Below are positions 10,152-50,174 of a stretch of 64,000 nt of DNA, in pieces. Position 1 is the first letter of the stretch. Each line of letters opens with the position of its first letter. The translations under genes were made by a program, and so were the position numbers. The notes beneath the pieces were generated by a model. That model had not been told where the DNA came from. It saw only the letters and a list, made by a program, of their open reading frames with translations, and did no database searches. The DNA comes from a virus, in the IMG/VR virus record IMGVR_UViG_3300033412_000004, positions 1-64,000 of that record; one strand, written 5' to 3'.

Positions 10152-11597
10152 ATGAAGTTGACGCTGGGCGAGGTGCGACAGATCGTGCGGCGCGCCTTGC
10201 TGACGGAAGTGCAGCTTCTGGGTGGCAAGGAAGCTGCCCAGGCTGACATCTATCGCGTCTATGAACTGCAGACGACTCACAAGCGAGACGATGGTAGCTA
10301 CGGCGGCTACGCTGGTGGCAAGTTCATCGTGGTGCCTTATGACATGCCCAAGTACGGCAAGGAAGGCATCGACAACTACTTGAAGGACGTGTTGGGAGTC
10401 AATCAGGATTCCAACGACAAGACGAAGCCTTGGTACACCGCCATCGAAGACAAGGCACTGGTCGTCAACCACCGCGACAAGACGATTGAGACGGACGTTG
10501 CCGAACGATCCCAGTACATGAACCGCCGACCAGGCAAGCGAGGTAGTGGTAGTCGCTCCTACATGATTCCGCACGCTTCGACTTCATTTGAGAAGATCCA
10601 CGAGCTGCAGAAGATCCTGAAGGCGATCAAGTCGATTGATCCTCGCTTGACTGATGATTACAAGATCGTTGGCAATCCCAACCACGAAGGCAAGACGATC
10701 GGTGACATCATGAAGGAGGAGCGCCCTGGTGACGTGATGGTGAAGGGCGGGCAGGCAAAGCCGATGATCCTTTACCACGGCACCAGCGACAAGCGCCTGG
10801 CCAACATCAAGAAGAACGGTCTGGCACCGGGCAATGCACCCTTTGTGTATGCCGACCTCGTCCAGAACTACTCTGAGTTCAACATCTACTTGACGACCGA
10901 GATCGGTCAAGCCGAGAACTACGCGACGCGTGCCGCCGTGGATGATGGTGGTAAGGCAGTCGTCCTCAAGGTCATCGTTCGTGATCCAACGAAATTCATC
11001 ACCGACGAAGACAACATGAACTGGATGAAGGCGACGAATCCCGAGGGGGAAGAGACCGAAATCCACTTCAAGCACAACAACTGGAAATCATGGCCCAACG
11101 CTCAGCAGATCATGAACCAGTTCCAGCAGCGCATCGCGAGCTCGCTGAATAAGACCGGCGCCATCGCCTACCGTGGCAAGATTCCTGTGTCGGACATCTC
11201 GATCCAGGCGGTCTACAAGCCCGCCTCAATGTCAAAGGACCCAGACTGGGAGGAGTACAAGGCCGCCCGTGAGAAGACGTTGGGTACGTACGTCAAGGGA
11301 GAACCTGACAAGGAACGCACCCGTCGAGCAGCGCCACCTTCCGCACCTGAGCCCAAGGCTGAACCCGTCCACGAACCAGAGGCACCTCGTGTAGCAGCCT
11401 CGGGCGGAAAGACCTACAAGGTCTACGGCAAGCTGAAGGGTGCTCCTGCCCACACACGGTTGAAGGGTAAGGCCTTCTTGGCACCTCGAGACACCAAATT
11501 CAAGAACGGCGAACAGGCCGCCGTCGAGCCCGCGGGCGACAAGCTGCGGGTCAAGAAAACTGACTCAGACCACACGCAGTTGTGGGACCCGGAATGA
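10152..11597 (+). CDS. ADP-ribosyltransferase-fold (Tpt1/KptA-like) protein with N-terminal targeting helix
   Basis: Start reassigned to MKLTLGEVRQIVRR, 5 nt after TACTTA. LYHGTS..IKKNGL..IYLT..AENYA..VVLKV..IPVSDI fits the ART fold. P/A-rich linker and a shared C-terminal domain follow. Confidence 0.6.
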   Translation: MKLTLGEVRQIVRRALLTEVQLLGGKEAAQADIYRVYELQTTHKRDDGSYGGYAGGKFIVVPYDMPKYGKEGIDNYLKDVLGVNQDSNDKTKPWYTAIEDKALVVNHRDKTIETDVAERSQYMNRRPGKRGSGSRSYMIPHASTSFEKIHELQKILKAIKSIDPRLTDDYKIVGNPNHEGKTIGDIMKEERPGDVMVKGGQAKPMILYHGTSDKRLANIKKNGLAPGNAPFVYADLVQNYSEFNIYLTTEIGQAENYATRAAVDDGGKAVVLKVIVRDPTKFITDEDNMNWMKATNPEGEETEIHFKHNNWKSWPNAQQIMNQFQQRIASSLNKTGAIAYRGKIPVSDISIQAVYKPASMSKDPDWEEYKAAREKTLGTYVKGEPDKERTRRAAPPSAPEPKAEPVHEPEAPRVAASGGKTYKVYGKLKGAPAHTRLKGKAFLAPRDTKFKNGEQAAVEPAGDKLRVKKTDSDHTQLWDPE

Positions 11598-11616
11598 CGG
11601 AGGATATTTAATCGCC

Positions 11617-12258
11617 ATGGAGCCCATGCTGGAGACTATCGAACTCGACATGGAGGAGTCTCACGACCTCATGTTCAAAGTGAAGGTCGAGGGCGCTGAA
11701 CCGTCACCGGCCAAGGTCCGCCTCGTCTGTGAGAGCGGCGACGTGGCCTACATGTTCAACGGCCGACCCACCTCGGAAGAGGGCGTCGTGCAGTTCACAC
11801 TGCCGGTGATGAAGGGCAAGCTGCAGGAGGGCGACTACAACAGCCGCGTCGAGGTTCTCATCGAGAACCGCTACTTTGCCCCCGTCTTGTTCAACATCAA
11901 CTTCAAGAAGGCCGTCAAGGTCGTCGCTGAGGCCATCACCGTCCAGACAAAGAAGTCGGCGCCCGAAGTCAGGGTGTCGGCGGTCCCGGTTGTCATCCAG
12001 AAGCCCGTGGCTCCTGTTGCTCGACCCATCGTTGTCGAAGCCCCGCCGGCACCGAAGCCGGTACCGGCTCCCGCACCCCCGCCAGCGCCCGCAAAGCCCG
12101 AACGTCGTGCTCCGCCGCCCGCTCGCATCAATGCTTCTACGACCTTGAAGGAGCGCTACCAGCGCAAGCAGCTTGCGGTCGAAGACCTAGGTCTCGATGC
12201 CGAAGATCAGAAAGCAATTCGCGAACTGGCTCGAGACTTCGTCAAGAGCAAGAAGTAG
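11617..12258 (+). CDS. Hypothetical protein (beta domain plus Pro-rich linker)
   Basis: 213-aa ORF; TATTTA 6 nt upstream of ATG. Confidence 0.6.
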   Translation: MEPMLETIELDMEESHDLMFKVKVEGAEPSPAKVRLVCESGDVAYMFNGRPTSEEGVVQFTLPVMKGKLQEGDYNSRVEVLIENRYFAPVLFNINFKKAVKVVAEAITVQTKKSAPEVRVSAVPVVIQKPVAPVARPIVVEAPPAPKPVPAPAPPPAPAKPERRAPPPARINASTTLKERYQRKQLAVEDLGLDAEDQKAIRELARDFVKSKK

Positions 12259-12657
12259 TCAGCGGTACGGGTTCTCGCGGCACGGGCGACACAAGTAGAC
12301 GCCGTCGCTGCGGACCGCCCCAATGCCGAAGTCGCCACACTTGTCGCACTTCTCGCCTTTGGGCGCCGGCAAGTGCTTGAAGATAGCCATCCTGGCAGTG
12401 ATGAAGCAGCCGGTGTCACCGAGGAACTTGTCCTCCACTCCAAAGTAGCGAAGGTGCTGTTTGGTGATGGTGAAGGTCGGAAACCCGTACGGGACTCGCT
12501 CATAGGCGGGGACGTAGCACAGATACTGAGCTGAGTCGCTGTCGTTGTCTGCGTCGAAACCGAGGACCATCACCTTCAGGCGCGAGTAGACCTTGTCACG
12601 GTAACCGAACCGGTCTTCGACCTTGAGGATGACCTCGTCCCATTTCGAGTACCTCAT
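12259..12657 (-). CDS. Hypothetical protein with C-terminal Zn finger
   Basis: Likely start MRYSKWDE with AGGAG RBS; CDKC...CRPC motif. Confidence 0.6.
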   Translation of the reverse strand: MRYSKWDEVILKVEDRFGYRDKVYSRLKVMVLGFDADNDSDSAQYLCYVPAYERVPYGFPTFTITKQHLRYFGVEDKFLGDTGCFITARMAIFKHLPAPKGEKCDKCGDFGIGAVRSDGVYLCRPCRENPYR

Positions 12658-12756
12658 AGTTAGTCTCCTATCACCTGAGAGCCCTCTGCTACACCGGAGG
12701 CCAGAACTCAGGTTTCGTCGCTGTTCTCGCGCCATACCTATCGAAGGACGCTCGCG

Positions 12757-13959
12757 ATGCCTAACTTCATCGATACGCTCAGGCCAACTCCCTTCGGATT
12801 CTTCGACTCGGACACACAATTCCAGACCGAGGCGGATGGCATGGTTACGTTCGTCAAGAGGAAGCTCGGTGACGATGTCTTGTCGGTCGAGTTGACTCGA
12901 AAGGAAATCTGGGCGTGCTTTGAAGAAGCCGTCTGCGAGTACAGCCGTCTCATTCATGAGATGAAGATCCAGTCAGAGCTCATCAACGTGTTGGGTTTGC
13001 CCACGGGCAGCACTGACTTGACCAACATCCTCCCACGACAGTCGCTGGAGTTCTTGATCAGGCAAGCAGAGCCTTACGCCACCGAAGCCTACCTCGGCGG
13101 TTCCTACGACGCGCAGTTGGGTTACATCGACCTGATCGCAGGCCAGCAGGACTACGACATCTACGCCGACATCAAGGACGCTGTCAGTGGCAGCAACTTG
13201 TGGTTGGGAATTCCGTCGGAGTCGCGCGGCAGGATGAGGCTCGTCGAAGTCTTTCACTTTGAGCCGACGGCTGCACAGTCGACGTTGCTCAACGCATCGA
13301 ACATCACCAACTTCTTGGCGACGAACTTCAACTATGAGTCGTACGTCAACAGCACTATCTTCTACGTGCTACCCGTCTTCGAAGATGTGCTCCGCCGCGG
13401 CATGCTGGAGACTGCGTTCCGGGTGCGCCGGTCGAACTACAGCTACGAGGTCATCGGCAGCAAGCTGAGGATTTACCCGGTGCCGGCGACCGACCAGCAG
13501 TTGGGCAAGCTGTACGTCAAGGTGTTCGCCAAGCCGATCAACCCAGTCGCGCCTGACATCGGCATCTCAGTGATGGGCAGCGTCTCGGATCCCACCTTGT
13601 ACGGCATCTCAGGTCCCAGCAACGTGCCGTTGGACAACTTGCCGTTCAGCACCATCACGCAGCCGGGTCGCCAGTGGATCCGTCAGTACACGCTGGCTCT
13701 GGCGCGAGAGCTGTTGGGTTTGATCCGGTCGAAGTTTCAGACGATCCCAATTCCGAACGCCGACCTGCAGCTCAACGGCGAGACGTTGGTCACCCAAGGT
13801 CGAGAGGACAAGGAGAAGTTGAAGGACCAACTACGTGAATGGCTCAGCGGCTTGACAAATGCAAAGCTGTTGGAGCAACAGGCATCGCTGGCCGAAAGCC
13901 TGCAGAAGACGCTGCGGCTGATCCCGATGCCGCTCGGCAAATCAATCATCATCGGGTGA
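12757..13959 (+). CDS. Neck/head-closure protein (T4 gp13-like)
   Basis: KRKLG..VLSVEL N-terminus and WIRQYTLALARELLGLIRSKF..IP...LNG C-terminus; position in the module. Confidence 0.75.
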   Translation: MPNFIDTLRPTPFGFFDSDTQFQTEADGMVTFVKRKLGDDVLSVELTRKEIWACFEEAVCEYSRLIHEMKIQSELINVLGLPTGSTDLTNILPRQSLEFLIRQAEPYATEAYLGGSYDAQLGYIDLIAGQQDYDIYADIKDAVSGSNLWLGIPSESRGRMRLVEVFHFEPTAAQSTLLNASNITNFLATNFNYESYVNSTIFYVLPVFEDVLRRGMLETAFRVRRSNYSYEVIGSKLRIYPVPATDQQLGKLYVKVFAKPINPVAPDIGISVMGSVSDPTLYGISGPSNVPLDNLPFSTITQPGRQWIRQYTLALARELLGLIRSKFQTIPIPNADLQLNGETLVTQGREDKEKLKDQLREWLSGLTNAKLLEQQASLAESLQKTLRLIPMPLGKSIIIG

Positions 13960-13967
13960 GGTGAACC

Positions 13968-14645
13968 ATGGCGCGCTTGTTCCTCGGTCCCCGAGAGATG
14001 AACTTCATCAGTGACATCACCAAAGAGGTGATCAAGGACGTCGTCGGGCAGAAGATTTTCTACTACCCGATCTCTGAGATCAAGACGAAGTTCCACGGCG
14101 TCTACAATGAGGCGATGCAGAAGGTCTTCGACCAGCCCATCGCCATCGATGCTCTGGTGGATGCCAAGTTTCAGGAAGAGACCAAGATCAACCAGTTCGG
14201 TGTCGACCAACAGTACAAGCTCGAGGTCTACATCCAGTACCGCGACCTGGTGGAGAAGGGCATCGAGATCTGCATCGGCGACTTCTTCTCGTACAGCGAC
14301 ATCTTCTACGAGATCACCGAGACGCAAGTGATGCGAAACATCTACGGTCAGGCTGAGCACAAGGACGGCATTCGCATCGTCGGCACCAAGGCTCGTGACA
14401 CTCAGTTCAAGACAGCGCTGCGCGGACCTACCGACATCGAGTACACCGACCCTGACGCGGTGCAGAAGAAATTCGAGCAGCAGCGCGGCTTCGCTGAAAA
14501 CGATGCCGGCCCGACGGGCGACGTTCACGACCTGGTCAAGGAAGGCGTCCTTGATCCGCCGCTGACGGGTCCCAAGGAAGTGTCCGAGGCCGGCGCTGTC
14601 GCCGACAACTCACGTCACGGTTCAGCATTCTACGACGAGGACTGA
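13968..14645 (+). CDS. Neck/head-completion protein (gp14-like)
   Basis: E.I...GQKIFYY...YNEA...GDFF..FYEIT pattern; follows the gp13-like gene. Confidence 0.6.
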   Translation: MARLFLGPREMNFISDITKEVIKDVVGQKIFYYPISEIKTKFHGVYNEAMQKVFDQPIAIDALVDAKFQEETKINQFGVDQQYKLEVYIQYRDLVEKGIEICIGDFFSYSDIFYEITETQVMRNIYGQAEHKDGIRIVGTKARDTQFKTALRGPTDIEYTDPDAVQKKFEQQRGFAENDAGPTGDVHDLVKEGVLDPPLTGPKEVSEAGAVADNSRHGSAFYDED

Positions 14646-14648
14646 TTC

Positions 14649-15938
14649 ATGCCCACTCGTTACAACAGCAAGAGCAAGACGACACACGGGGTGCCTGGCC
14701 TTCCGTCAGGCTACGACGGCAACTCGTCTTCCACGCTGACGATTCCTTCGGTGGGTATGGAGGACGTCGACGTCGCGCTGTTCACCATGTTTGACAAGGA
14801 GATCCCGTTCCAGGTCTCCGGCGACGGTGCTCCCATGAAGGACGTGCCCGTCGTCTTTGCAGTGGGCGAAAAGGCGGCGGTCCTGAAGAAAGGACGCGCG
14901 CTGCGCGACAAGAAGAACACCCTCATCCTGCCGCTGATCACCATCCAGCGGACGACGGTCCAGCAGACCGCCAATGAAGACATCGCGGGGCGAGGCATCA
15001 ACCAGCAGACCGGCGAGATTGTCATCAAGAGGCGGCTGGATAAATCGGACCGCACGTACCAAGGCCTCATCAATCGACTGTTCTTGAAGCACCAGACCAA
15101 CCTCGCAGTGCCTCAGGCGGAGGCTGATGAGGGTCAGCTGACGACCGAACGATCGGTGGGCGAACTGTCCCCAGATCCGACCGTCAAAGAAGGCGGCCTG
15201 ATGATCCCGGACAGGATGAACAACATCTACGAGACGATCGTCATCCCGGCGCCGCGCTTCTACACCGCGGTCTACGAGGTCACCTTCTGGACGCAGTACG
15301 TCCAGCACATGAACCAGCTCCTGGAGCAGTTGGTCAACTCGTTCCTGCCTCAAGGCCAGAGCTGGCGCGTCGACACTCCCAAAGGCTACTGGTTCGTTGC
15401 CAAAGTCGACAATGACACCTACACGGCCGAGAACAACTTTGACGACCTGTCGACGACGGAGCGCATGGTCAAGTACAAGTTCACCGTCAAGGTGCCGGCC
15501 TACATCCTGGCCTCCGCAGTCCCAGGCGCGCCTGTTCCCTTGAAGCGTTATGTATCGCAACCGATCGTTCGCTTTGACGTGGGTCTCAACGTAGGTGAGG
15601 AGACGGGCGCTGGTGACACAGATGATCCCTTCTTGGGTGCTGATGACCCAACGCTGCCTCTGGAAGACGGCAAGTCCCGTCGACGAGACCAGCGCGCGTC
15701 AGGCCACGGACGGGTGTACCCGAACCAAGCAGCAACGAACCCCGACGATCCGGCGCTGAAGTCGCTGTCTCGCGGTCGAGGTACGGCACAGTACAAGAAG
15801 GTCCTCACCGTCGATGGGAACGGAAATGAGGTCGTCAAGTATGTACGAGTCACGTCGGTCAATCCACACACCGGTGAGACCGTCTTTGCCCCCGGCACCG
15901 ACCTCGGCGGGCTGACCATTGTGGTCACAGACGACTGA
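14649..15938 (+). CDS. Tail terminator/sheath stabiliser (gp15-like)
   Basis: VPVVF..E, LILPLITI, YEVTFWTQY..MNQLLEQL patterns; lies between neck and sheath genes. Confidence 0.6.
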   Translation: MPTRYNSKSKTTHGVPGLPSGYDGNSSSTLTIPSVGMEDVDVALFTMFDKEIPFQVSGDGAPMKDVPVVFAVGEKAAVLKKGRALRDKKNTLILPLITIQRTTVQQTANEDIAGRGINQQTGEIVIKRRLDKSDRTYQGLINRLFLKHQTNLAVPQAEADEGQLTTERSVGELSPDPTVKEGGLMIPDRMNNIYETIVIPAPRFYTAVYEVTFWTQYVQHMNQLLEQLVNSFLPQGQSWRVDTPKGYWFVAKVDNDTYTAENNFDDLSTTERMVKYKFTVKVPAYILASAVPGAPVPLKRYVSQPIVRFDVGLNVGEETGAGDTDDPFLGADDPTLPLEDGKSRRRDQRASGHGRVYPNQAATNPDDPALKSLSRGRGTAQYKKVLTVDGNGNEVVKYVRVTSVNPHTGETVFAPGTDLGGLTIVVTDD

Positions 15939-15969
15939 TGGTGCGTCGGGTTTTCACCTACGCGCCTGA

Positions 15970-15975
15970 TACTTA
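15970..15975 (+). promoter_or_regulatory. Late-type promoter box TACTTA (sheath 1)
   Basis: GATACTTA; the same box recurs before sheath 2, tube, neck and baseplate genes. Confidence 0.65.
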
Positions 15976-16010
15976 TCTTAGCGATTCAACACCGCTAGAG
16001 GAGCACGGTA

Positions 16011-19000
16011 ATGGCTGGAACCGAACAGACTTTCAGGTCGCCCAATTTCTTCGAACGTGAAATCGACCTGTCCGCGCCCGTCCTGGGAGGCCCGGTCGGC
16101 ACCCCCGCGGGCATCATCGGCACCGCCAACAAGGGTCCTGCCTTCGTCCCGGTGACGGTGGCAACGTTCGACGAATTCGTTTCGACCTTCGGCAACTTGG
16201 ACCCCAAGAGGTTTGGTCCTTACGCCGTCAATGAGTTTTTGAAGCACCGTCACGCTCTGACCTACATCAGGGTCCTGGGCGCCGGCGCGAATTCGACCGA
16301 CGGAGATGTGGCAGAGACCCTTCAGACGGGTCGAGTCAAGAATGCTGGTGTCAAGATCGAAGGCAATACTGCACCCCACGACACGCTGGGCCGCCACAAC
16401 GGCGCAGTGCAGTTCTTGGCCGCGCGGCACATGCTGCAGACCAACGAAGCCTTCGGCATGCCGATGTTCACCGACAACCGGTCGTTCTCGGGTGGCTTCG
16501 CCAACCTGATCCGCGGCGTGGTCCTGATGGCCAGCGGCGCCAGGATGATGGTCCTCGACTCAGACCAGTCGGCAGTCGGCGCCTTCACGGCGACCGGCCC
16601 CGACGACGTGGCGACCCCGACCAACGGCAAGTTCAAGCTGGTCATCTCGTCGACCTTGGGCAACGGCTTCGTCAACACTGACGGCAACCCGGGCGTCCGC
16701 ATCCTGACGGCATCGCTCAACCCGACCGACGCTGACTACTTCGGCAAGATCCTGAACACCGACCCCGACAACTTCGTCAGGGAGCAGCACCTGCTCTACG
16801 CTGACTTCGCGGTCGATGATGAGATTGCGACGCCGACCTTGGTCGCGGCGCTGTCCGGCACCGTCAACGCGTCCCAGACGTCGGGTGACACCAGCCTGAT
16901 CTTCCGCAAGATGTTTGGTGCCTTCGACACTCGGTACCAGACGCCTCACACCACGCCCTTCATCTCGCAGCCTTTCGGCGCGACGGAGTACGACCTGTTC
17001 TCCTTCGAGGCGCTGGACGATGGTGAGTTTGCCAACAAGCTCTACAAGATCTCGATCACCAACATCAAGGCGTCGCTCGACGACTCGAACCGTTACGGTA
17101 CCTTCACCGTCCAGATCCGAGACTACAACGACACCGACATCAACCCGCAGGTTCTCGAGTCATTCCCGAACTGCTCGTTGAACCCGACGGCACCCAACTA
17201 CGTCGCCAAGTTGATCGGCGATCGCAAGGTCACCTACAACTTCGACGCAACGGTCTCGACCGAGCGCCGCATCGTCACTTTCGGCAAGTACCAGAATGTG
17301 TCGAAGCTGGTTCGGATCGTGATGTCCGATGCTGTCGAACGTGCTCTCGTCCCGGCACTGGCACTGCCTTTCGGCTTCCGCGGCTACGAAGCCCCGAAGA
17401 CCAACGACGGTCTGAACGACACGGCCCCGGCTTCATCGCTGGCCCGCGTCGGCGGCGTCCTCGGTGTCGGTGCAGGATCTGCGCTGAGCGGTTCCATCGT
17501 TCCGCCGGTTCCCTTCCGCTTCAAGTGCACCAAGGGTGACATCCCGAACACGGGCGCCTTCGAAGGTGCACCGGGCCCGACCGAGTTGGCAAGCACCCAG
17601 CTCTACTGGGGTGTCAAGTTCGAGCGCAACACCAGCCCGCTCAACTCCAACCTGTCGTCGGAAAAGAACAACCTGCTCGCGTCCTTCACCAAGTTCCTGG
17701 GCATCAAGCAGCTTGACGCTCTGGTCACCGGTGCGGGTGCTGACCAGTTCAACGACAACAAGTTCACGCTGTCCAAGGTCGCCTTCTCCAACACGGCGTT
17801 GGCTGACCTGACGGGCACCGTCAACGACCACATGCGCGAAGCGGCCTACCTCCGCAACGCCAAGGTCGACCTGACGGACTACTCGGTGTCGACCAACATC
17901 GGTCGCCGCATCACCTTCGCCACGCTGTTGACGAAGGGCACGGCCCCGGAGTTCAACCGCTTCTCAGGTTTCGCCAAGTTCACCAACATGATGTTCGGTG
18001 GCTACGATGGCGTCAACTTCCTGGACCGCGACTCACGCCGCATGAACGACAAGGCCTCGTCCTTCGACGGCGGCGGCGGCGCGGAGCTGACCTACGTTGC
18101 TCCGGGCTTGCTGGTCAACCCGGCGGGCACCGGTCAGTCGAACTCGGCAGTGCTGTCCTACCAGACGGCAGTCGACATCATGACGGACCCGCTGACGGTC
18201 AACCACAACCTGTTGGTCATCCCGGGCATCCGTGAGTCCTTCATCACCGACTACGCGATGAAGAAGGTCCGTGACTACGGTCTCGCCTTCTACATCATGG
18301 ACATGGCGGCCTACAGCGACACCAACGTTCGTCTCTACGACGACTCGACGGGTCGTCCTGACGTCGACAAGTCGGCGAGCGCGTTGGATGCACGGGCCAT
18401 CGACAACAACTACGCAGGCACCTACTTCCCGAACGTCTTCATCGACGACACGACCAACAAGCGCCGCATCAAGGTGCCCGCTTCGGTCGCCGCCGTCGGC
18501 GCCCTGGCGTTCAACGACCGGGTTGCCTACCCGTGGTTCGCCCCCGCCGGCTTCAACCGTGCGGCTCTCGACTTCGTCACCAACGTCGAGGTTCGCCTCA
18601 ACGTCAGTGACCGCGACCGCCTGTACGAGTCGCGGATCAACCCGATTGCAACGTTCCCCCGCCTCGGCTTCGTGATCTACGGTCAGAAGACGCTGCAGGT
18701 GAACAAGTCGGCTCTCGACCGCGTCAACGTCCGCCGCCTCCTCCTGGAGGTCAAGCGGATCATCGTCCAGATCGCCAACCAGCTCGTCTTCGAGCAGAAC
18801 ACCCCTGAGGTGCGGAACAAGTTCGTTGCGGACTGCGTTTTGCAGCTCGGTCTCATCCAGACCCAGTCTGGCATCGAGAACTTCAAGGTCATCTGCAATG
18901 AGACGAACAACACTCAGGAAGACATCGACCTGAACAAGCTGAACGGACGCATCGTGGTCGTACCGACCAGGGTGATCGAGTTCATTGCGATCGACTTCAT

Positions 19001-19031
19001 CATCACCAACAGCGGCGTCCAGTTCGTCTGA
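16011..19031 (+). CDS. Tail sheath protein 1
   Basis: SPNFFEREIDLS, IIGTANKGPAFVP, PWFAPAGFNR, INPIATF, GQKTLQ, LDRVNVRRLL, PTRVIEFIAIDF. Confidence 0.93.
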   Translation: MAGTEQTFRSPNFFEREIDLSAPVLGGPVGTPAGIIGTANKGPAFVPVTVATFDEFVSTFGNLDPKRFGPYAVNEFLKHRHALTYIRVLGAGANSTDGDVAETLQTGRVKNAGVKIEGNTAPHDTLGRHNGAVQFLAARHMLQTNEAFGMPMFTDNRSFSGGFANLIRGVVLMASGARMMVLDSDQSAVGAFTATGPDDVATPTNGKFKLVISSTLGNGFVNTDGNPGVRILTASLNPTDADYFGKILNTDPDNFVREQHLLYADFAVDDEIATPTLVAALSGTVNASQTSGDTSLIFRKMFGAFDTRYQTPHTTPFISQPFGATEYDLFSFEALDDGEFANKLYKISITNIKASLDDSNRYGTFTVQIRDYNDTDINPQVLESFPNCSLNPTAPNYVAKLIGDRKVTYNFDATVSTERRIVTFGKYQNVSKLVRIVMSDAVERALVPALALPFGFRGYEAPKTNDGLNDTAPASSLARVGGVLGVGAGSALSGSIVPPVPFRFKCTKGDIPNTGAFEGAPGPTELASTQLYWGVKFERNTSPLNSNLSSEKNNLLASFTKFLGIKQLDALVTGAGADQFNDNKFTLSKVAFSNTALADLTGTVNDHMREAAYLRNAKVDLTDYSVSTNIGRRITFATLLTKGTAPEFNRFSGFAKFTNMMFGGYDGVNFLDRDSRRMNDKASSFDGGGGAELTYVAPGLLVNPAGTGQSNSAVLSYQTAVDIMTDPLTVNHNLLVIPGIRESFITDYAMKKVRDYGLAFYIMDMAAYSDTNVRLYDDSTGRPDVDKSASALDARAIDNNYAGTYFPNVFIDDTTNKRRIKVPASVAAVGALAFNDRVAYPWFAPAGFNRAALDFVTNVEVRLNVSDRDRLYESRINPIATFPRLGFVIYGQKTLQVNKSALDRVNVRRLLLEVKRIIVQIANQLVFEQNTPEVRNKFVADCVLQLGLIQTQSGIENFKVICNETNNTQEDIDLNKLNGRIVVVPTRVIEFIAIDFIITNSGVQFV

Positions 19032-19051: not shown

Positions 19052-19057
19052 TACTTA
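19052..19057 (+). promoter_or_regulatory. Late-type promoter box TACTTA (sheath 2)
   Basis: CTGATACTTA, identical to the sheath 1 box. Confidence 0.65.
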
Positions 19058-19078
19058 CAGGGCAGAGGATACGTAGAG

Positions 19079-22137: not shown

Positions 22138-22395
22138 ATGAAGCTGACCCTCAAACAACTCCGGCAGGTCATCGGGGAGGCTCTTGACGAGTCTCCCGTG
22201 GTGAATGATGACGACAACGAATACGAGCTCGAGGAAGTCGACTCGGCGCTGAATGATGCCCTGGTCCTTGCTCAGGACTATCCGGACATCACCGAGGACG
22301 AAGTCCGTGAGTACCTTCTCAACGGTGGCTATCGTTCCGTCGTTGCCAACATCGCCGCACGCAAGTGCATGATGCGGCTTGGGAGAGGTGCATGA
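22138..22395 (+). CDS. Small acidic protein with N-terminal targeting helix
   Basis: MKLTLKQLRQVIGEALDE; GAGG RBS. Confidence 0.6.
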   Translation: MKLTLKQLRQVIGEALDESPVVNDDDNEYELEEVDSALNDALVLAQDYPDITEDEVREYLLNGGYRSVVANIAARKCMMRLGRGA

Positions 22396-22760
22396 GGATT
22401 ACCAAAGAAGCACTGCGACGCATCATTCGCGAAGCGGTCAAACGCAAGCTTGAAGAGAGTGACATCAACGAGGCCATGCCGGAGACGGCGGGCGATTCGA
22501 TGGGTGGCACTGTTGATGCAGTCGCCGCCGCGCTGGTCACTCAGTTGATCGAACGAGTCGACTCAACCCTTGCCAGCAACGCCTATGAAATGGTCATGGG
22601 CCTGGGCGAGGATGAATCGATGATGCGGCCGGGCCGGTACGAGGACGTCGAGCACTTCGCGTCCCAGGCCGTTGACAAGGCCTTGTCTGATCCTGAGTTG
22701 AAGGATGCTCTGTTGACGACCGCGATGGAAGTCATCAAGAACCTGATGGAACCAGGGTGA
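22392..22760 (+). CDS. Small acidic protein with N-terminal targeting helix
   Basis: MRITKEALRRIIREAV; ATGA overlap with the previous gene. Confidence 0.65.
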   Translation: MRITKEALRRIIREAVKRKLEESDINEAMPETAGDSMGGTVDAVAAALVTQLIERVDSTLASNAYEMVMGLGEDESMMRPGRYEDVEHFASQAVDKALSDPELKDALLTTAMEVIKNLMEPG

Positions 22761-22761
22761 C

Positions 22762-23067
22762 ATGGAAATCACCAAGGAGCAGCTGCAGGAGCTCATTGAT
22801 GAGGAGTTCGAAAGAGCGCTCCTGAGGCGGCGGGGCCACCTAGAGGAGGCTCTGATCCGCGAGCTGGCCGGTGACGTGGGCTCGGCCCTCGACGAGGTCA
22901 TCAAGGACCTCTACGAAACGACCAAGAAATTGGAACAGGCACACGAGTTGGCACCTGAAGGTCCGGCTCGGGCGATCATCGCCGGCCTGTACAGCGACTT
23001 TTTCAACAAGGTGGCCGAGTTCCGCAAGTACGCGGGTCAAGTGAAGGCGCTGGCGAAAAAGGGGTAA
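22762..23067 (+). CDS. Small helical protein with N-terminal targeting helix
   Basis: MEITKEQLQELIDEEFE. Confidence 0.65.
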   Translation: MEITKEQLQELIDEEFERALLRRRGHLEEALIRELAGDVGSALDEVIKDLYETTKKLEQAHELAPEGPARAIIAGLYSDFFNKVAEFRKYAGQVKALAKKG

Positions 23068-23083: not shown

Positions 23084-23089
23084 TACTTA
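23084..23089 (+). promoter_or_regulatory. Late-type promoter box TACTTA (tail tube)
   Basis: GAATACTTA, identical to the box at 1300-1308. Confidence 0.65.
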
Positions 23090-23115
23090 CAGCTATCCGG
23101 TGACAGGAGACAACA

Positions 23116-23604
23116 ATGGCTGAGACACTTGACGTAACGTCGATGCTCCCGAACAAGTTCGAGCCCAAGCGCAAGAACCGTTGGGTGCTCATGATCGAAG
23201 GCATCGATGCCTACATTTGCAAGACCACGGCTCGTCCGACAGTGACGACCGAAGAGGTCGAGGTGCCGTTCATCAACGCGCGCCGTTACCTGGCAGGCTT
23301 GACCAAGTTCAACACGATCGCGGTCACCCTCCACGACCCCATCGCTCCTTCGGGCGCGCAGCAGGTCATGGAGTGGGTTCGCCTCCACTTCGAGTCGGTG
23401 TCGGGCCGCGCAGGCTACGCTGACTTCTACAAGCGCGACATCCAGCTGAAGGTCCTCGACCCGGTTGGTACCGTCGTCGAGCTGTGGGACATCAAGGGCG
23501 CTTTCATCACGGAAGCGAACTTCGGTGAGCTCACCTACGAAGACGGCACCCCGGCTGAAATCAGCCTGACGCTCCGCTTCGACAACGCAGTCCTCCAGTT
23601 CTGA
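23116..23604 (+). CDS. Tail tube protein (gp19-like)
   Basis: FEPKRKNRW, YKRDIQLKVLDPVG..VELWDIKGAF, ISLTLRFD; TACTTA box and AGGAG RBS. Confidence 0.88.
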   Translation: MAETLDVTSMLPNKFEPKRKNRWVLMIEGIDAYICKTTARPTVTTEEVEVPFINARRYLAGLTKFNTIAVTLHDPIAPSGAQQVMEWVRLHFESVSGRAGYADFYKRDIQLKVLDPVGTVVELWDIKGAFITEANFGELTYEDGTPAEISLTLRFDNAVLQF

Positions 23605-23617: not shown

Positions 23618-23914
23618 GTGAAGCTGACCCTCAAACAGCTTCGCGGCCTCATCAGAGAGGCAGGCGAAGAGATGGACCAGGCCCGTCGCAAAGGCGGCGG
23701 CCGCGCAGCTCTGGGTTTTGCGATTCCGGAAGACTCATGGGGCAGCGATCCCGACGGTCCTCCGCCTCCGCAGGCCGAGACGCCGGAGCAACTTGCCAAG
23801 TCGCTGATGCGAGTCGTGGGCCGCAGTGCCGTGGACTTGGGCGGCGGCGAGGTCTACATCATGACGGGCGAGGCCGAAGGCGTCACCGTACGGTGCATGC
23901 GGAGGGGTCGATGA
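23618..23914 (+). CDS. Small protein with N-terminal targeting helix
   Basis: GTG start, AGGAGG RBS, MKLTLKQLRGLIREAGEE. Confidence 0.6.
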   Translation: MKLTLKQLRGLIREAGEEMDQARRKGGGRAALGFAIPEDSWGSDPDGPPPPQAETPEQLAKSLMRVVGRSAVDLGGGEVYIMTGEAEGVTVRCMRRGR

Positions 23915-24492
23915 AGCTCAATCTGGGCCAACTGCGCCAGGTCATCCGTGAGGAACTGACACGAGTCACCGAGGCGGCAAAGCCGACCGCGGTCATCGCC
24001 ACCATCCAACCGGGAGACCAGTCCAAGTGGGACGAGGCACTCCGGGCCATGAAACTGAAGTCGATGGTCAAGTTCGTACCGTCGGCTGGTGGCGTCGATG
24101 TCGTCTTTCAAGGTTACGGCACCCCTGGCGAGACCAAGCGCCGTGCCGAAGTCCTGGGACGCAAGCTGCAGAAGGTGGTCAGCAAGACGGCAGCGACGGA
24201 AGCACCTGTCGACGACGCCGTCGTCTACAAGCTGCTGACCATGGCATTCACCTCAACTGTCGGACCTGATGACGTAAAGTACATTAGATTCCAACCGTTG
24301 AAGAATGCTGTACGGATGGTCGATTATGACGGCATGCTGGGAAACATGGACGCCGGTGTCGGCGCCAGCGACCTGGCTCACTTTGGGATCACCGCCCGTC
24401 AGCTCGCCGATTGGTTGGCTGCACACGGCGCTCGTCCCATGAAACCACAACGTCGTCAGCGACCCATGGGCCCGATGGGCGGGTACGACTGA
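23911..24492 (+). CDS. Protein with N-terminal targeting helix
   Basis: Start reassigned to MKLNLGQLRQVIREEL (GGAGG RBS, ATGA overlap). Confidence 0.65.
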   Translation: MKLNLGQLRQVIREELTRVTEAAKPTAVIATIQPGDQSKWDEALRAMKLKSMVKFVPSAGGVDVVFQGYGTPGETKRRAEVLGRKLQKVVSKTAATEAPVDDAVVYKLLTMAFTSTVGPDDVKYIRFQPLKNAVRMVDYDGMLGNMDAGVGASDLAHFGITARQLADWLAAHGARPMKPQRRQRPMGPMGGYD

Positions 24493-35103: not shown

Positions 35104-35111
35104 GGTGACAC

Positions 35112-35405: not shown

Positions 35406-35408
35406 TGC

Positions 35409-39574: not shown

Positions 39575-39589
39575 GAGGTAGGGTTCTAC

Positions 39590-40189
39590 ATGTCTCAAGA
39601 GCTGACGCCCGAGGAAATCGAGCAGAACTGGAACAAGTTCCGTTCACTGTGTGAGCGGCTGGGAGATCGTTCGGAAGCGGCGCTTCGGATGGTCGATTCT
39701 CTGGGTGAGCGCCTCGCGATCTGTCCGGCTTCGGGCAAGCGCGACTACCACAACTGCTTTCCGGGCGGCCTGGTCGACCATTCGCTCCGGGTCCTCGGCA
39801 ATGCGATGAGGTTGGCGAAGGCGTTCGGCTGGGAAATCCCCAAAGACTCGCTGATCATCGGCTGCCTGTTCCACGACCTGGGCAAGGTGGGCGACCACGA
39901 GAAGGACTACTACATCCCCCAGACCGACGGATGGCGGGCCGACAAGCTCGGTGAGCTCTACACCTACAACAAGGACATCCAGTACATGACGGTGCCCGAC
40001 CGCGGCATCTTCCTGTGCCAGCACTTCGGTCTCCAGTTGAAGCGTGAGGAGCTCCTGGCGATTCGCCTGAATGACGGTCAGTACTCCGACGACAACGGCT
40101 CATACAAGCTCAAGGAGCCGATGCTAGCCGACGTCGTGCACATGGCAGATCTCATCTCGACGAAGCAAGAGAAGGGAATTTTGCCCTAG
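39590..40189 (+). CDS. HD-domain phosphohydrolase
   Basis: YH..FPGGLVDHSLRV, LFHDLGK, HMAD. Confidence 0.85.
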   Translation: MSQELTPEEIEQNWNKFRSLCERLGDRSEAALRMVDSLGERLAICPASGKRDYHNCFPGGLVDHSLRVLGNAMRLAKAFGWEIPKDSLIIGCLFHDLGKVGDHEKDYYIPQTDGWRADKLGELYTYNKDIQYMTVPDRGIFLCQHFGLQLKREELLAIRLNDGQYSDDNGSYKLKEPMLADVVHMADLISTKQEKGILP

Positions 40190-40207
40190 TCGAGGATACT
40201 TAGATCC

Positions 40208-40444
40208 ATGAGCAAAACGCTGCTCATGCGGTATATTCGATTGACGTTGGATGAGGCGCACCTGGCAAGGGTGCCGCAGCAGCTGATGTCGCCCACGGAT
40301 TCGGAAGAAGGTTCAGAGGATGAGGCTGAGAACGTACAAGAGTTCTCCGGTGTCGGAGCGATCATGGGCTACAGTGCCCCGCTCGGCATGGATCTCGACA
40401 AGCTTGGACGCAAAAAGAACGCGTCGCGTCGGAAGCGGAAGTAA
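40208..40444 (+). CDS. Small late protein with degenerate targeting helix
   Basis: MSKTLLMRYIRLTLDE; TACTTA 5 nt upstream. Confidence 0.55.
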   Translation: MSKTLLMRYIRLTLDEAHLARVPQQLMSPTDSEEGSEDEAENVQEFSGVGAIMGYSAPLGMDLDKLGRKKNASRRKRK

Positions 40445-40599
40445 CTCAAACCACCGCATGTTCTGCGCAGTTGGTAGGGAATTGTACGTTCACGCCACCG
40501 TGAACTTTGCATAGGCTTCGCAGTACGTTGCTAGAACTGCGCAGGTGCAGTTCAATGACGCGTCCTGCAAGGTAAGGAAAAAGGAAAGAGGAAAGCAAA

Positions 40600-41505
40600 A
40601 TGGCAGTAGATCTCGAGGCGATCCGTCGCCGTGTTCAGGAACTCAGTGGCAACCGCCGCAACTCGAACGTCCAGCTGTGGAAGCCGGGCGTGGGTGAGTA
40701 CAAGGTCCGTGGTCTTCCGTGGAAGAACGCTCCCGAAGGCCAACCGTTCATCGAGCGTTGGTTCTACTACATCGGCAACGGCCCGGGCATCCTGGCGCCG
40801 CACCAGTTCGGCAAGCCGGACCCGATCAAGAACCTCATCAACAAGCTGTACAGCTCGGGCAAGCCGGATGACCGGCTCCTCGCCAAGAAGCTGCAGCCGA
40901 AAATGCGTGCCTACATGCCCGTCATCGTTCGCGGTGAAGAGGCGAAGGGCGTCCAGGTCTGGAGCTTCGGCAAGCAGATCTACCAGAAGTTGCTCGGCTA
41001 CTTCCTCAACGAGGAGGTGGGTGACATCCTCGATCCGTCCGAGGGCTTCGACATCAACGTCAGCATCAAGCAGCAGGCTGGCAAGCAGTTCATGGACACC
41101 GAGGCTGAGGCCGCCCGTCGGCCGAGCAAGCTGTCCAACGACGGCGAGGCCGCGAAGAAGTGGCTCGACGGCGTGCCCAACATCGACGACATGTACCGTC
41201 TGAAGACGGAGCAGGAGATCGAGACCATCCTCAACAACTGGCTCAACGGCGGTGACGCTGTGGCTGAGGCGTCGGATGGCACGGCTCGCGGCGCCGACAA
41301 GGGCACCGATGAGCTCGACAAGCTCGTCAACGAGGTGAAGGCGGAAACCAAGCCGTCTGCTCCGACGGCCGAGGCTGCGCCTGCGAAGGCGAACGGCCGC
41401 AAGGCGAAGAAGGCTGCGGATGTCGACATGGACGAAGAGGCACCGAAGGGTGACACCAAGAAGGACCTCGACGCTGCGTTCGACGAACTGATGCAGGACG
41501 ACTGA
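40600..41505 (+). CDS. Single-stranded DNA-binding protein (gp32-like)
   Basis: WKP..VRGLP..PFIE..FYY..DPI..VIVRGEE..VQVWSFGKQIY..DP.EGFD core; acidic tail LDAAFDELMQDD. Confidence 0.82.
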   Translation: MAVDLEAIRRRVQELSGNRRNSNVQLWKPGVGEYKVRGLPWKNAPEGQPFIERWFYYIGNGPGILAPHQFGKPDPIKNLINKLYSSGKPDDRLLAKKLQPKMRAYMPVIVRGEEAKGVQVWSFGKQIYQKLLGYFLNEEVGDILDPSEGFDINVSIKQQAGKQFMDTEAEAARRPSKLSNDGEAAKKWLDGVPNIDDMYRLKTEQEIETILNNWLNGGDAVAEASDGTARGADKGTDELDKLVNEVKAETKPSAPTAEAAPAKANGRKAKKAADVDMDEEAPKGDTKKDLDAAFDELMQDD

Positions 41506-43568: not shown

Positions 43569-43569
43569 C

Positions 43570-44337
43570 CTACGCAGTTTTCTTGGCGCGATCAGGAACG
43601 GTCGACATGTCACCCGAGTCCTTCTTGGGTCCGATGTTGGCCGTTTTTGCATTTGCAGCGTTGGTTGCGCCTGGCTTGACAGTCGCGGCGTCGGGCGGTG
43701 CTGTCTTGCGAGCCCGGTCCTGCGAGTAGTGCTTCTCAAAGACCTCACCGGTGAAGCCGTAGTCCAACAGGACGACACGCCCATCGGCAGACTTGCCCCA
43801 GTGGGTGATTTCTTTGATGTCGCCGAACATGAGGTCGTTGGCCTTCATCGTTGCCGCCATCGCTTGAGCCATCTCAGACGGATCTTCGACGGGTTCACCT
43901 TTGAACAAGGCTTTGACCTCTTTGATGAAGGTCGTCCAATCGAGCCCAGTTGCGTCAGCGAATTCTTTCTCGTTCTTCAGCTCTCGAACGGCGTCAGAGA
44001 TGACCCATTTGTTGTCAGGATCGGCCTTGTGCACCCTGGCGATGATCGCCTTGGTCTCCGGGTTAGTGGCAACTTGGACTTCAGTCTCGTTCTGCGCGAT
44101 TCCCTTGTTATTGATCGCGATCTTCAGCACGTACCGCGACGAGAAGACGTAGGCGGCGCGGGAGGACCCTTGGCCCAGCTTCTGGAGGAAGGAGTCCGCG
44201 TACGCCAGGAGCATGTTCGGGTTGTCGAGCGATTCGAACTTCTTCATGTTGAACTTGTCGCCGAAGGCACTGCCTTTCTTGGTCGACCGGATCTCTCCCA
44301 CCAACATGGAGATGTACTCGCGCAGCACGCTGCTCAT
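43570..44337 (-). CDS. Protein-kinase-like protein with N-terminal targeting-like helix
   Basis: LGQGSSRAAY Gly loop, VLKIA, QNETE, DIKEITHWG, VLLDYG; N-terminus MSSVLREYISMLVGE; TACTTA 5 nt upstream on the - strand. Confidence 0.65.
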   Translation of the reverse strand: MSSVLREYISMLVGEIRSTKKGSAFGDKFNMKKFESLDNPNMLLAYADSFLQKLGQGSSRAAYVFSSRYVLKIAINNKGIAQNETEVQVATNPETKAIIARVHKADPDNKWVISDAVRELKNEKEFADATGLDWTTFIKEVKALFKGEPVEDPSEMAQAMAATMKANDLMFGDIKEITHWGKSADGRVVLLDYGFTGEVFEKHYSQDRARKTAPPDAATVKPGATNAANAKTANIGPKKDSGDMSTVPDRAKKTA

Positions 44338-44342
44338 TCAGC

Positions 44343-44348: not shown

Positions 44349-44392
44349 GGCTCTCATGTACTGTGCTACAGATCAGAAGTACCCTTAACACC

Positions 44393-45355: not shown

Positions 45356-45363
45356 CAGGAGAA

Positions 45364-46818: not shown

Positions 46819-46904
46819 TTATGACCTGCACACAACTGAGCCGCGCATGGCCCAGCGGCTCCCTGCGAATTTTGCTGCTGGAAGTTCAGGAGAGAGCGAT
46901 CTAG

Positions 46905-49385: not shown

Positions 49386-49410
49386 TACTTATCGCCCAGA
49401 GGTGTCGTCG

Positions 49411-49908
49411 ATGAAGCTCACTCCACGCATGGCTAAGGAGATCAATTCCATCGTTCAGGAAGAGGTACAAGGTGCCCTGGAGGGTCGCCGCCTGGCTGAA
49501 CGAATCACTCGCAAGGTCGATCAGAAGCCTGTCAAGCTGAACAAGCTGCAGCTGCGGTCGTTGCTCCGAGAGGCGATCCAGGGCAGGCAGCCCGGTGAGC
49601 CCGAGCCGTTCCAGATGACCGAGAAGTTCGGCGCCTACGACGTTGAGAACCGCTACGACATGGGCGAGGAAGAGCCCATGATGCCTCACAACTTCGAGGC
49701 CACCCACAAGGAGCTGTTCAGCCAGGCGCTGGACCCGGTGGTCGGCGAGTTCGTCGAAGGGCTGATGGAGATGTACGATGCCGGCTTTGCCCCTGAAGGT
49801 CGTGAAGGCGCTCGCAAGGCGTGTGAAGCGGCTGGCCAGGAGATGAAGGCCGAGCTGATGTCGGTCATCGAGAAGTGGCTCGAAGAGGGCATCGACAGGA
49901 TCGTCTGA
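49411..49908 (+). CDS. Acidic protein with two targeting-helix copies
   Basis: MKLTPRMAKEINSIVQEE and internal KLNKLQLRSLLREAI; TACTTA at 49386. Confidence 0.6.
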   Translation: MKLTPRMAKEINSIVQEEVQGALEGRRLAERITRKVDQKPVKLNKLQLRSLLREAIQGRQPGEPEPFQMTEKFGAYDVENRYDMGEEEPMMPHNFEATHKELFSQALDPVVGEFVEGLMEMYDAGFAPEGREGARKACEAAGQEMKAELMSVIEKWLEEGIDRIV

Positions 49909-50174
49909 TGAAGATGCGCGTCGGCGATCTCCGACGGGTGATCCGCGAAGAATTCATGCGCGGCGTCCCCGAGTGGGCACTTCGACAGGCGACGTCGAAG
50001 TACGTAGAGGAGATCCGTCAACACGTCAAGACGTTCATCATGATGAACAAGTCCCAGACAGGAGAAGGTCAGAAGGAAGCCATCGCGGCGGCCAACCTGG
50101 TCCTCGAAGAGTTGGAGGACGAGACCTACGATCTTCTGGAAGATAAGCTGTACCAGTTCATCAGGAGGGTGTGA
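49908..50174 (+). CDS. Small protein with N-terminal targeting helix
   Basis: MKMRVGDLRRVIREEF; TGATG coupling. Confidence 0.62.
   Translation: MKMRVGDLRRVIREEFMRGVPEWALRQATSKYVEEIRQHVKTFIMMNKSQTGEGQKEAIAAANLVLEELEDETYDLLEDKLYQFIRRV

What the first reader, a model, noticed from the sequence alone, without database searches (positions are those of the whole stretch)
10152..50174. A shared N-terminal 'KLTxxxLRxIIxEE' helix on ~10 unrelated proteins: candidate capsid-targeting tag for a packaged effector arsenal
Seen in sequence: 10152 MKLTLGEVRQIVRRALLTE; 22138 MKLTLKQLRQVIGEALDE; 22392 MRITKEALRRIIREAV; 22762 MEITKEQLQELIDEEF; 23618 MKLTLKQLRGLIREAGEE; 23911 MKLNLGQLRQVIREEL; 49411 MKLTPRMAKEINSIVQEE plus an internal KLNKLQLRSLLREAI; 49908 MKMRVGDLRRVIREEF. 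Weaker copies are 40208 MSKTLLMRYIRLTLDE and 44337(-) MSSVLREYISMLVGE. The sequence after the tag differs in every case: ART-like, kinase-like, or small acidic. All of these genes sit behind a TAnnTA late box or directly downstream of sheath/tube genes, even the ones embedded among replication genes. Established: T4 internal proteins carry a short N-terminal capsid-targeting sequence removed by prohead protease gp21 at (I/L)-x-E. The tags here end in IxE/LxE. Inference: this is a modular address label that loads diverse cargo into the head for ejection into the host, which would also be an engineerable protein-delivery tag.
Basis: partly seen in the sequence, partly recalled or inferred. Interest (0 to 1): 0.88.

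Follow-up and report, generated by a model that had tools for sequence, protein, structure and literature searches.

The report
Capsid-address-like leader on jumbo-phage proteins
About one gene in nine on this fragment of an uncultured T4-like giant phage starts with the same 15-residue peptide, which is most likely an address tag that loads varied proteins into the phage head and is then cut off, as T4 does on a small scale; no virion has been examined.

Summary
A profile of the leader (M-K/R-L/I-T-x-x-Q-L-R-x-I/V-I-R/K-E-E) finds seven N-terminal copies and one internal copy in the window, plus five N-terminal copies further along the 91.6-kb record. These score 10-31 bits against at most 4-6 bits for anything else in six frames. 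The three "weaker copies" (40208, 44337-, the N-terminus of 49411) do not score.

Codons differ synonymously, and the protein bodies are unrelated apart from a known shared C-terminal domain.

The tag is widespread in uncultured viruses: 6,323 clusters among 1.84 billion representatives. It is absent from isolate bacterial genomes and from six cultured T4-like phages.

All 10 tag-bearing viral records that are at least 65% complete encode a T4-type head protease (Peptidase_S77). In 11-12 relatives, the conserved small protein next to that protease begins with the same motif (hhalign E 7e-8). The capsid protein keeps an invariant hydrophobic-[RK]-E site where T4 gp23 is cut, which matches the tag's I-[KR]-E end.

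Tagged genes share a TACTTA box with the sheath and tube genes and sit in hyperplastic gaps.

Verdict: a capsid-targeting-like leader, a new variant of the T4 CTS. Packaging and cleavage are inferred, not shown. The scan met this tag before on other DNA (e1-5895365) and on this genome (e1-5985549).

The parts
10152..11597 (+). Tagged gene (481 aa). The tag is residues 1-16 and ends VRR...LTE. The body has a sub-threshold ART-PolyVal/DUF7578 hit and a basic C-terminal domain.
   Evidence: 23.3 bits. Pfam and PHROG results. C-terminal domain shared with G000 72785 and 75855. TACTTA box at 10141.
22138..22395 (+). Tagged gene (85 aa, pI 4.3), 14 nt after sheath 2.
   Evidence: 31.2 bits. No Pfam or PHROG family.
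22392..22760 (+). Tagged gene (122 aa, acidic). Its start overlaps the preceding stop.
   Evidence: 24.7 bits. The identical protein is recorded on 4 contigs, the longest 357,674 bp.
22762..23067 (+). Tagged gene (101 aa) with a less canonical tag (E2, Q9, D13). This family is conserved just upstream of the tube gene in several relatives.
   Evidence: 23.9 bits. Homologous N-termini in L128, L138, L142, L144 and L146.
23618..23914 (+). Tagged gene (98 aa, GTG start) directly after the tube gene.
   Evidence: 23.0 bits. AGGAGG Shine-Dalgarno sequence upstream.
23911..24492 (+). Tagged gene (193 aa, pI 9.8).
   Evidence: 28.7 bits. The single-sequence fold was uninformative.
49411..49908 (+). 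Gene (165 aa) with an internal tag copy at residues 41-56 (nt 49531-49578). Its own N-terminus does not score.
   Evidence: 10.3 and 10.0 bits for the internal copy. TACTTA box at 49386. Lies between ribonucleotide reductase and unrelated genes.
49908..50174 (+). Tagged gene (88 aa). Its start overlaps the stop of 49411-49908.
   Evidence: 27.4 bits.
15970..15976 (+). TACTTAT box 34 nt before sheath gene 1 (16011-19031). Candidate late promoter element.
   Evidence: Sheath identified by phrog_23.
19052..19058 (+). TACTTAC box before sheath gene 2 (19079-22123). Heads the unit that carries tagged genes 22138, 22392 and 22762.
23084..23090 (+). TACTTAC box before the tube gene (23116-23604). Heads the unit that carries tagged genes 23618 and 23911.
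40208..40444 (+). Listed 'weaker copy'. Not a member by profile. It has a TACTTA box 4 nt before the ATG and may belong to a second leader class (L-R-x-Y-I...L-x-E).
   Evidence: No score. Box. Similar N-termini in G004 at 137866 and 139305.
43570..44337 (-). Listed 'weaker copy'. Not a member by profile. phrog_4301 family protein with its own TACTTA box.

Best explanation
The 15-16-residue leader is a capsid-targeting-type propeptide of a large clade of uncultured T4-like jumbo phages.

Proposed mechanism, all steps inferred:
1. Tagged proteins are made late, together with virion proteins.
2. The amphipathic N-terminal helix has hydrophobic residues at positions 1, 5, 8, 12 and 16. It docks them into the assembling prohead core, using the same interaction as the conserved core-module proteins p138 and p91 that carry the motif.
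3. The gp21-type head protease then cuts after the near-invariant I12-[K/R]13-E14 and frees the cargo inside the capsid.

Some cargo is probably ejected with the DNA. Some of the small acidic proteins may instead be accessory core components that are degraded.

Shown here: the motif, its strict N-terminal position, its modularity, its restriction to viruses, its link to S77-protease phages and to head-module proteins, and the co-regulation signal. Inferred: binding, cleavage, packaging and delivery.
For: 1. The motif is real, N-terminal and modular.

The profile finds 321 copies in 0.96 Mb of those loci, and 314 of them begin at ATG, GTG or TTG.

3. An unbiased logo from 141 tags gives L8 96%, I12 95% and E14 95%. 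Conservation ends after residue 16.

4. 6,323 representative clusters match at E<=0.001 among 1.84 billion proteins.

5. In 596 Gb of prokaryote genomes there were only 50 pattern hits. About 30 are chance matches, including all but one of those in isolate genomes. Nineteen loci hold profile-scoring copies: 18 lie on MAG contigs, five of them with 4-16 copies each, and one is a marginal 14-bit match in an isolate, Pedobacter miscanthi.

6. All 10 tag-bearing viral records that are at least 65% complete encode Peptidase_S77. They carry 15-32 tags each, often in arrays.

7. Relatives G004 (sheath 50% identical) and G054 (73% identical, syntenic with this record) have Portal_T4, S77 and Gp23.

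8. Relatives share the head module terL-portal-p280-protease-p119-p138-p91-...-scaffold-MCP, most completely in ten of them.
   - The p138 N-terminus matches the tag profile in 11 genomes, with hhalign probability 94.6% and E 7e-8.
   - The p91 N-terminus gives 73.9% and E 2.8e-5.

9. Tagged-gene arrays lie inside or beside the head module in G048, G002 and G047.

10. The capsid proteins of 12 related genomes (13 sequences, one genome carrying two copies) keep an invariant [VIL]-L-[RK]-E at about residue 61. T4 gp23 loses 65 residues (521 versus 456 aa in the PDB), and T4 residue 76 aligns to residue 69 here.

11. [LIV][KR]E is rare in other N-termini of this record, 2 of 80.

12. The TACTTA box is shared with the sheath and tube genes. 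Nine recognised DNA/RNA enzymes carry neither tag nor box.

13. In T4, CTSs are 10-19 residues long, suffice for packaging, and are processed at residues 8 and 10 (PMC9026906, PMC3012670, PMC5694885).
Against: - There are no virion proteomics and no cultured member, so nothing shows that any tagged protein is in a particle or is cut.
- The 91.6-kb fragment holds no protease, scaffold or capsid gene. The link rests on relatives.
- There is no detectable sequence similarity to the T4 CTS (MKTYQEFIAE).
- Hydrophobic-x-E is a short motif that arises easily in a charged helix. It occurs in 12.5% of other N-termini.
- Two core copies (10152, 71068) lack E14 and only have a site 3-5 residues later.
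- Most cargo is acidic, unlike T4's basic internal proteins.
- That the TACTTA box is 'late' is inferred only from the genes it precedes.
Confidence: 0.62

Rival explanations
1. The leader is a generic docking or oligomerisation helix. It brings diverse proteins to some hub other than the prohead, such as a phage or host complex, and it is not removed.
For: - The heptad-like hydrophobic pattern would suit any helix-helix contact.
- Several cargoes, such as DnaJ+WGR, could act in the cytoplasm.
- No cleavage has been shown.
Against: - The motif heads two conserved proteins encoded between the head protease and the scaffold.
- Tagged arrays sit in head modules.
- Conservation stops right after a protease-type tripeptide that matches the capsid protein's site.
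- The tag is found only in S77-protease phage lineages.
Confidence: 0.18
2. The tagged genes are one fast-diverging paralogous family made by tandem duplication. The N-terminus is kept for folding, stability or translation and has no addressing role.
For: - Arrays of 10-25 adjacent tagged genes occur, some with extended shared starts such as ...EEKAKLL.
- ORFs with several tag copies exist in the databases.
Against: - Bodies range from 59 to 465 residues and include distinct known domains (DnaJ, WGR). They show no residual similarity.
- The same tag sits on conserved, non-paralogous head-module proteins.
- Duplication explains the origin of the copies. It does not explain why only 15 residues stay invariant across soil, freshwater and marine lineages.
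Confidence: 0.1
3. The repeat is a nucleic-acid element, for example a translation-initiation or mobile cassette boundary, and the peptide is a by-product.
For: A 43-nt stretch is 79% identical between two copies. Tagged genes occupy insertion hot spots.
Against: Codons for the conserved residues vary freely. Upstream DNA is not conserved. Conservation follows amino-acid classes across genomes of 45-60% GC.
Confidence: 0.02

Closest known systems
Capsid targeting sequence (CTS) of phage T4 internal proteins IPI, IPII, IPIII and Alt (Mullaney and Black 1996; reviewed in PMC9026906 and PMC3012670; sequence MKTYQEFIAE in PMC8442874)
   Same: - A short N-terminal leader, 10-19 residues in T4 and 14-16 here.
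- It sits on otherwise unrelated proteins of a T4-type phage.
- It ends in hydrophobic-x-E, the gp21 protease motif.
- The genes are scattered outside the head cluster.
- The cargo is variable between relatives.
   Different: - No sequence similarity to the T4 CTS.
- Far larger scale: 12 genes on this fragment, 15-32 per related genome, and thousands of clusters in metagenomes, against a handful in T4.
- The cargo is mostly acidic.
- Function is untested.
T4 prohead-core and shell propeptides (gp23, gp24, gp67, gp68, gp22) processed by gp21 (PMC5694885)
   Same: - The head-module proteins p138 and p91 and the capsid protein of relatives carry the motif or the same hydrophobic-[RK]-E site.
- The capsid-protein site lies where T4 gp23 is cut.
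- From memory, the 10-residue gp24 propeptide ends LLRE.
   Different: p138 and p91 match no Pfam or PHROG family. Equivalence to gp67 or gp68 rests on gene position only.
Long propeptides of ejection proteins in phiKZ-like giant phages such as SPN3US and 201phi2-1 (PMC5694885, PMC10052503)
   Same: Jumbo phages with a T4-type protease that load many proteins into the head through N-terminal propeptides.
   Different: Those propeptides are 80-160 residues long, are not a shared portable motif, and are cut at A/S/G-x-E.
N-terminal capsid-targeting signal of P1 DarB (PMC9024508)
   Same: An N-terminal signal sufficient to load a protein, and a reporter, into a myophage head for delivery.
   Different: About 30 residues on a single protein, in an unrelated phage. 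It is not a multi-gene tag.

Membership tests
T4-type capsid targeting sequence (CTS) | Short leader at the extreme N-terminus of otherwise unrelated proteins | tested here: met
   12 N-terminal copies on the record. Bodies are unrelated. 314 of 321 copies in IMG/VR loci begin at a start codon.
T4-type capsid targeting sequence (CTS) | Ends in the head-protease motif (L/I-x-E) | tested here: met
   I12 95% and E14 95% in the unbiased logo. 10 of 12 copies here have [ILV]-x-E at residues 12-14. This is sequence-level evidence only.
T4-type capsid targeting sequence (CTS) | The phage encodes a gp21-type (Peptidase_S77) prohead protease | tested here: inconclusive
   Absent from the 91.6-kb fragment, which is about 25% of the genome. 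Present in syntenic relatives G054 and G004 and in 10 of 10 tag-bearing records at least 65% complete.
T4-type capsid targeting sequence (CTS) | Leader is removed in the mature virion | not testable with these tools
   Needs N-terminomics of particles.
T4-type capsid targeting sequence (CTS) | Leader suffices to package a foreign protein | not testable with these tools
   Needs a cultivable tag-bearing phage or a reconstituted prohead.
T4-type capsid targeting sequence (CTS) | Sequence relatedness to the T4 CTS | tested here: not met
   By eye the consensus MKITKRQLRRIIREE shares only the M-K start and the I-x-E end with MKTYQEFIAE. No tag was found in six cultured T4-like cyanophages or pelagiphage. 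It is therefore an analogue or a distant variant, not a demonstrable homologue.
T4-type capsid targeting sequence (CTS) | Late expression with virion genes | tested here: inconclusive
   The shared TACTTA box also precedes the sheath and tube genes. Timing is not measured.
T4-like phages (gp20/gp21/gp23 head, contractile tail) | Portal_T4, Peptidase_S77 and Gp23 capsid protein; T4-type sheath, tube and baseplate | tested here: met
   Window: sheath phrog_23, tube phrog_4542 and PF12322 T4_baseplate. Relatives: PF07230, PF03420 and PF07068.

The most novel reading that the evidence does not exclude
The leader is a portable, computationally recognisable address label derived from the N-terminus of a prohead-core protein. 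If so, it marks the whole packaged, and partly injected, proteome of a cosmopolitan clade of uncultured T4-like jumbo phages. That proteome comprises thousands of cargo families, among them J-domain, WGR and ART-like proteins and many small acidic candidates for anti-restriction factors. The set of proteins a phage brings into the cell could then be read directly from metagenomes.
Probability: 0.35. Interest if true: 0.8.

Novelty: new variant of a known kind. Interest (0 to 1): 0.6.

Why it matters
If the tag works as inferred, it turns an open question into a sequence search: which phage proteins travel inside the capsid and act first in the host. It would apply to a large, uncultured and globally distributed phage group, and would yield thousands of candidate early-acting or anti-defence proteins. 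It would also show that the T4 CTS principle scales to a tenth of a genome, and that the label is borrowed from the core proteins themselves. That points to the receptor in the scaffold core. A 15-residue packaging tag has obvious uses as a protein-delivery handle, as the T4 and P1 signals already do.

Tried and rejected
- Complex prediction with the tag (40 residues, alignment A6) and the G001 scaffold protein (A5) gave no verdict. It is not evidence either way.
- Structure prediction of 23911-24492 without an alignment gave pLDDT 48.8, which is unusable.
- tblastn of a 23-residue tag against cultured phages found no match.
- The word-index homologue search of residues 1-40 of 22392 found only itself.
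- blastn of the sheath region against cultured phages found no match. The closest cultured sheaths are only 30-37% identical.
- P-SSM2, HTVC008M, Syn9, S-PM2, S-RIM44 and Syn1 carry no tag.
- No paper holds the motif strings.
- Rejected as evidence: internal tag copies in database ORFs are often preceded by E at -3 and K at -1. This looked like a second cleavage site. It is more simply a Shine-Dalgarno sequence (GGAG/GAGG) read in frame, because the same E(-3) appears in frame upstream of the separate genes 22392, 23618 and 23911 here.
- Rejected as members: 40208, 44337(-) and the N-terminus of 49411.
- The similarity of the capsid-protein N-terminus (MSKKFTLxQLTEGIRQRH) to the tag is suggestive, but it did not score with the profile.
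Full report
**What the record is.** The window is the first 64 kb of a 91,612-bp IMG/VR virus record. CheckV rates it about 25% complete, which implies a jumbo phage of roughly 350 kb. An identical protein is on record on a 357,674-bp contig. The window encodes two tandem tail-sheath paralogues, a tube protein, a T4-type baseplate protein and a 1,700-residue tape-measure-like protein. After these come RecA, a 5'-3' exonuclease, a DnaB helicase, ribonucleotide reductase, ThyX, thymidylate kinase, an MT-A70 methylase, RlaP and PNKP. No cultured phage is close. The best sheath matches are 30-37% identical over a third to half of the protein.

- All quoted N-termini are present.
- A profile of 11 copies scores them 19-31 bits. 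A variant two residues shorter, at 84016, scores 13.6 bits, and an internal copy at 49531 scores 10.3. Everything else in six frames scores 4.2 bits or less.
- A profile made mainly of tags from other phages independently recovers the copies it was not trained on.
- Each N-terminal copy follows ATG or GTG on the + strand. The codons for conserved residues differ, so selection acts on the peptide.
- Without the tag, the bodies (59-465 residues, pI 4.1-9.9) share nothing by BLAST. The exception is a basic C-terminal domain of about 60 residues in three of them.
- Firm domains are rare. There is DnaJ plus WGR on the copy at 75855, a sub-threshold ART-PolyVal hit on 10152, and nothing for the small ones.
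- The three 'weaker copies' are not members by either profile.

**How widespread is it?**
In those 0.96 Mb the profile finds 321 copies, and 314 of them begin at start codons.
- A logo was made from 141 copies that the pattern did not force. It reads M-K-I-T-K-R-Q-L-R-R-I-I-[KR]-E-E-[LI], with L8, I12 and E14 at 95-96%. Conservation is gone after residue 16. The median tagged ORF is 108 residues.
- A profile search of 1.84 billion representative proteins gives 6,323 hits at E<=0.001.
- The same pattern hit only 50 places in 596 Gb of prokaryote genomes. About 30 are chance matches that the profile rejects, including all but one of those in isolate genomes. Nineteen loci hold profile-scoring copies: 18 lie on MAG contigs, five of them with 4-16 copies each, and the remaining one is a marginal 14-bit match in an isolate, Pedobacter miscanthi.
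- Six cultured T4-like cyanophages and a pelagiphage have none.
- No paper in the library holds the motif.

**Link to the head.**
- The fragment itself has no protease or capsid gene.
- Its relatives do. G054 has a sheath 73% identical and is syntenic from the first gene of this record. G004 is 281 kb with a sheath 50% identical. Both carry Portal_T4, Peptidase_S77 and Gp23.
- In G054 the head module lies immediately upstream of the region that matches the start of this record. The module here was therefore simply cut off.
- All 10 tag-bearing viral records that are at least 65% complete encode S77. Five of them carry 15-32 tags each, often as arrays of adjacent small genes.
- Relatives share the head module terL-portal-p280-protease-p119-p138-p91-p160-p200-scaffold-capsid protein, most completely in ten of them.
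- The N-terminus of p138 is M(A)K[IVM][TS][KR]xxLKx[LIV][VI]KECLVEILxEG. Across 11 genomes it matches the tag profile with hhalign probability 94.6% and E 7e-8 over 18 columns. p91 matches more weakly, at 73.9% and E 2.8e-5.
- Tagged arrays lie between protease and scaffold in G048, and directly after the capsid gene in G002 and G047.

**The cut site.** The capsid proteins of 12 related genomes (13 sequences, because G001 has two copies) keep an invariant LLENQ..[VIL]-L-[RK]-E near residue 61. A variable linker and the conserved mature N-terminus follow. PDB entries show T4 gp23 as 521 residues full-length and 456 mature, so 65 residues are removed. T4 residue 76 aligns to residue 69 of the G004 protein. 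The conserved site therefore falls where T4 is cut. Its tripeptide, hydrophobic-[RK]-E, is the same as I12-[KR]13-E14 of the tag. [LIV][KR]E occurs in the first 20 residues of only 2 of 80 other ORFs of this record. In T4 the CTS is 10-19 residues long. Targeting depends on residues 4 and 7, and processing on residues 8 and 10 (PMC9026906). The CTS is the only conserved part of otherwise diverse internal proteins (PMC3012670).

**Regulation and plasticity.**
- TA[CGA]TTA occurs 26 times on both strands, and 16 distinct genes carry it within 60 nt upstream of the start. These include both sheath genes, the tube gene, other structural genes, five core tagged genes and 49411, whose tag copy is internal. 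The other seven tagged genes follow in units headed by a box, six of them tightly packed.
- None of the nine DNA/RNA enzymes tested has the tag or the box.
- That the box is a late promoter is an inference from the genes it precedes.
- The sheath-to-tube gap holds three tagged genes here. It is only 46-85 nt long in about half of 75 relatives. In the rest it holds one to four different tagged genes, sometimes with GIY-YIG-like endonuclease ORFs. This is the behaviour of a hyperplastic cargo locus.

**Interpretation.** The best-supported reading, at about 0.62, is a capsid-targeting-type propeptide. It would dock into the prohead core in the way the core-module proteins that share it do, and the S77 protease would remove it after E14. 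Whether the cargo is delivered is less certain. Many of the proteins are small and acidic, and they could be accessory core proteins.

The rivals are:
- a non-capsid docking helix (0.18);
- a diverged paralogue family with no addressing role (0.10);
- a nucleic-acid element (0.02, contradicted by the synonymous variation).

**Limits.** There are no particle data, and this phage's own head module was not seen. There is no similarity to the T4 CTS. The complex and single-chain fold predictions were uninformative. An apparent second cleavage motif before internal tag copies in database ORFs was discarded as a Shine-Dalgarno footprint.

**Earlier scan notes.** The scan had noted the same tag on a marine T4-like phage (e1-5895365), and another reader had noted it on this genome (e1-5985549). 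The tests reported here were made independently of those notes.

Noticed in passing
window 16011-19031 and 19079-22123; loci L140, L145, L150: There are two tandem tail-sheath paralogues of about 1,000 residues, conserved in G004 and G054. Some relatives carry a third sheath-like ORF of about 1,040 residues between sheath 2 and the tube gene.
   Followed up: partly
window 10141, 11605, 40197, 44348(-), 54434; G000 70795, 75844: In seven genes the TACTTA/TAGTTA/TATTTA box ends only 4-5 nt before the start codon, with no room for a Shine-Dalgarno sequence. This would give leaderless mRNAs. The sheath and tube genes have the box 27-41 nt upstream, with a Shine-Dalgarno sequence.
   Followed up: partly
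proteins P0002-P0151: The top 150 database hits carry 2-4 tag-cargo units in one ORF. Of 160 internal copies, 141 begin with M, V, L or I and follow a Shine-Dalgarno-like footprint. They could be true polyproteins, fused gene calls or read-through; this is unresolved.
   Followed up: partly
G054 (L239/L240) 39039-40736 and 34611-38171; G058, G048 portals; G001 (L244) 11269-15150: The G054 head protease ORF is 565 residues, with an insertion of about 320 residues splitting the S77 match (possibly an intein). Portals of G054, G058 and G048 are 950-1,190 residues against about 650 elsewhere. The G054 portal ORF has an in-frame 128-residue extension that starts with a tag-like peptide. G001 has two tandem capsid-protein genes.
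   Followed up: no
G000 75855-76853 (L234:5855-6853), beyond the window: A tagged protein with a J domain immediately after the tag, a WGR domain and the shared basic C-terminal domain. It is a candidate packaged co-chaperone.
   Followed up: partly
L296, L285, L301 (NHDW01000006.1, 305,838 bp); L283, L271 (PBIO01000025.1); L255, L262, L270, L277, L279 (JBBAUR01): Contigs filed in MAGs of Methylococcaceae, Halobacteriovorax and Bdellovibrionota carry dense tag arrays. They are probably jumbo-phage contigs binned with bacteria.
   Followed up: partly
window 40208, 44337(-); G000 91043; G004 137866 and 139305; L131 5550: A second, shorter leader-like N-terminus (…L-[RK]-x-Y-[IV]-x-x-[ML]-L-x-E-E) recurs on different proteins behind TACTTA boxes. 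It may be another tag class. There are too few cases to test.
   Followed up: no
loci L129, L131, L139 between sheath 2 and tube: GIY-YIG-like ORFs (N-termini such as MHVVYKHTNRLNGKAYVGFT) sit beside tagged genes in the hyperplastic gap. This suggests that homing endonucleases help to shuffle the cargo genes.
   Followed up: no
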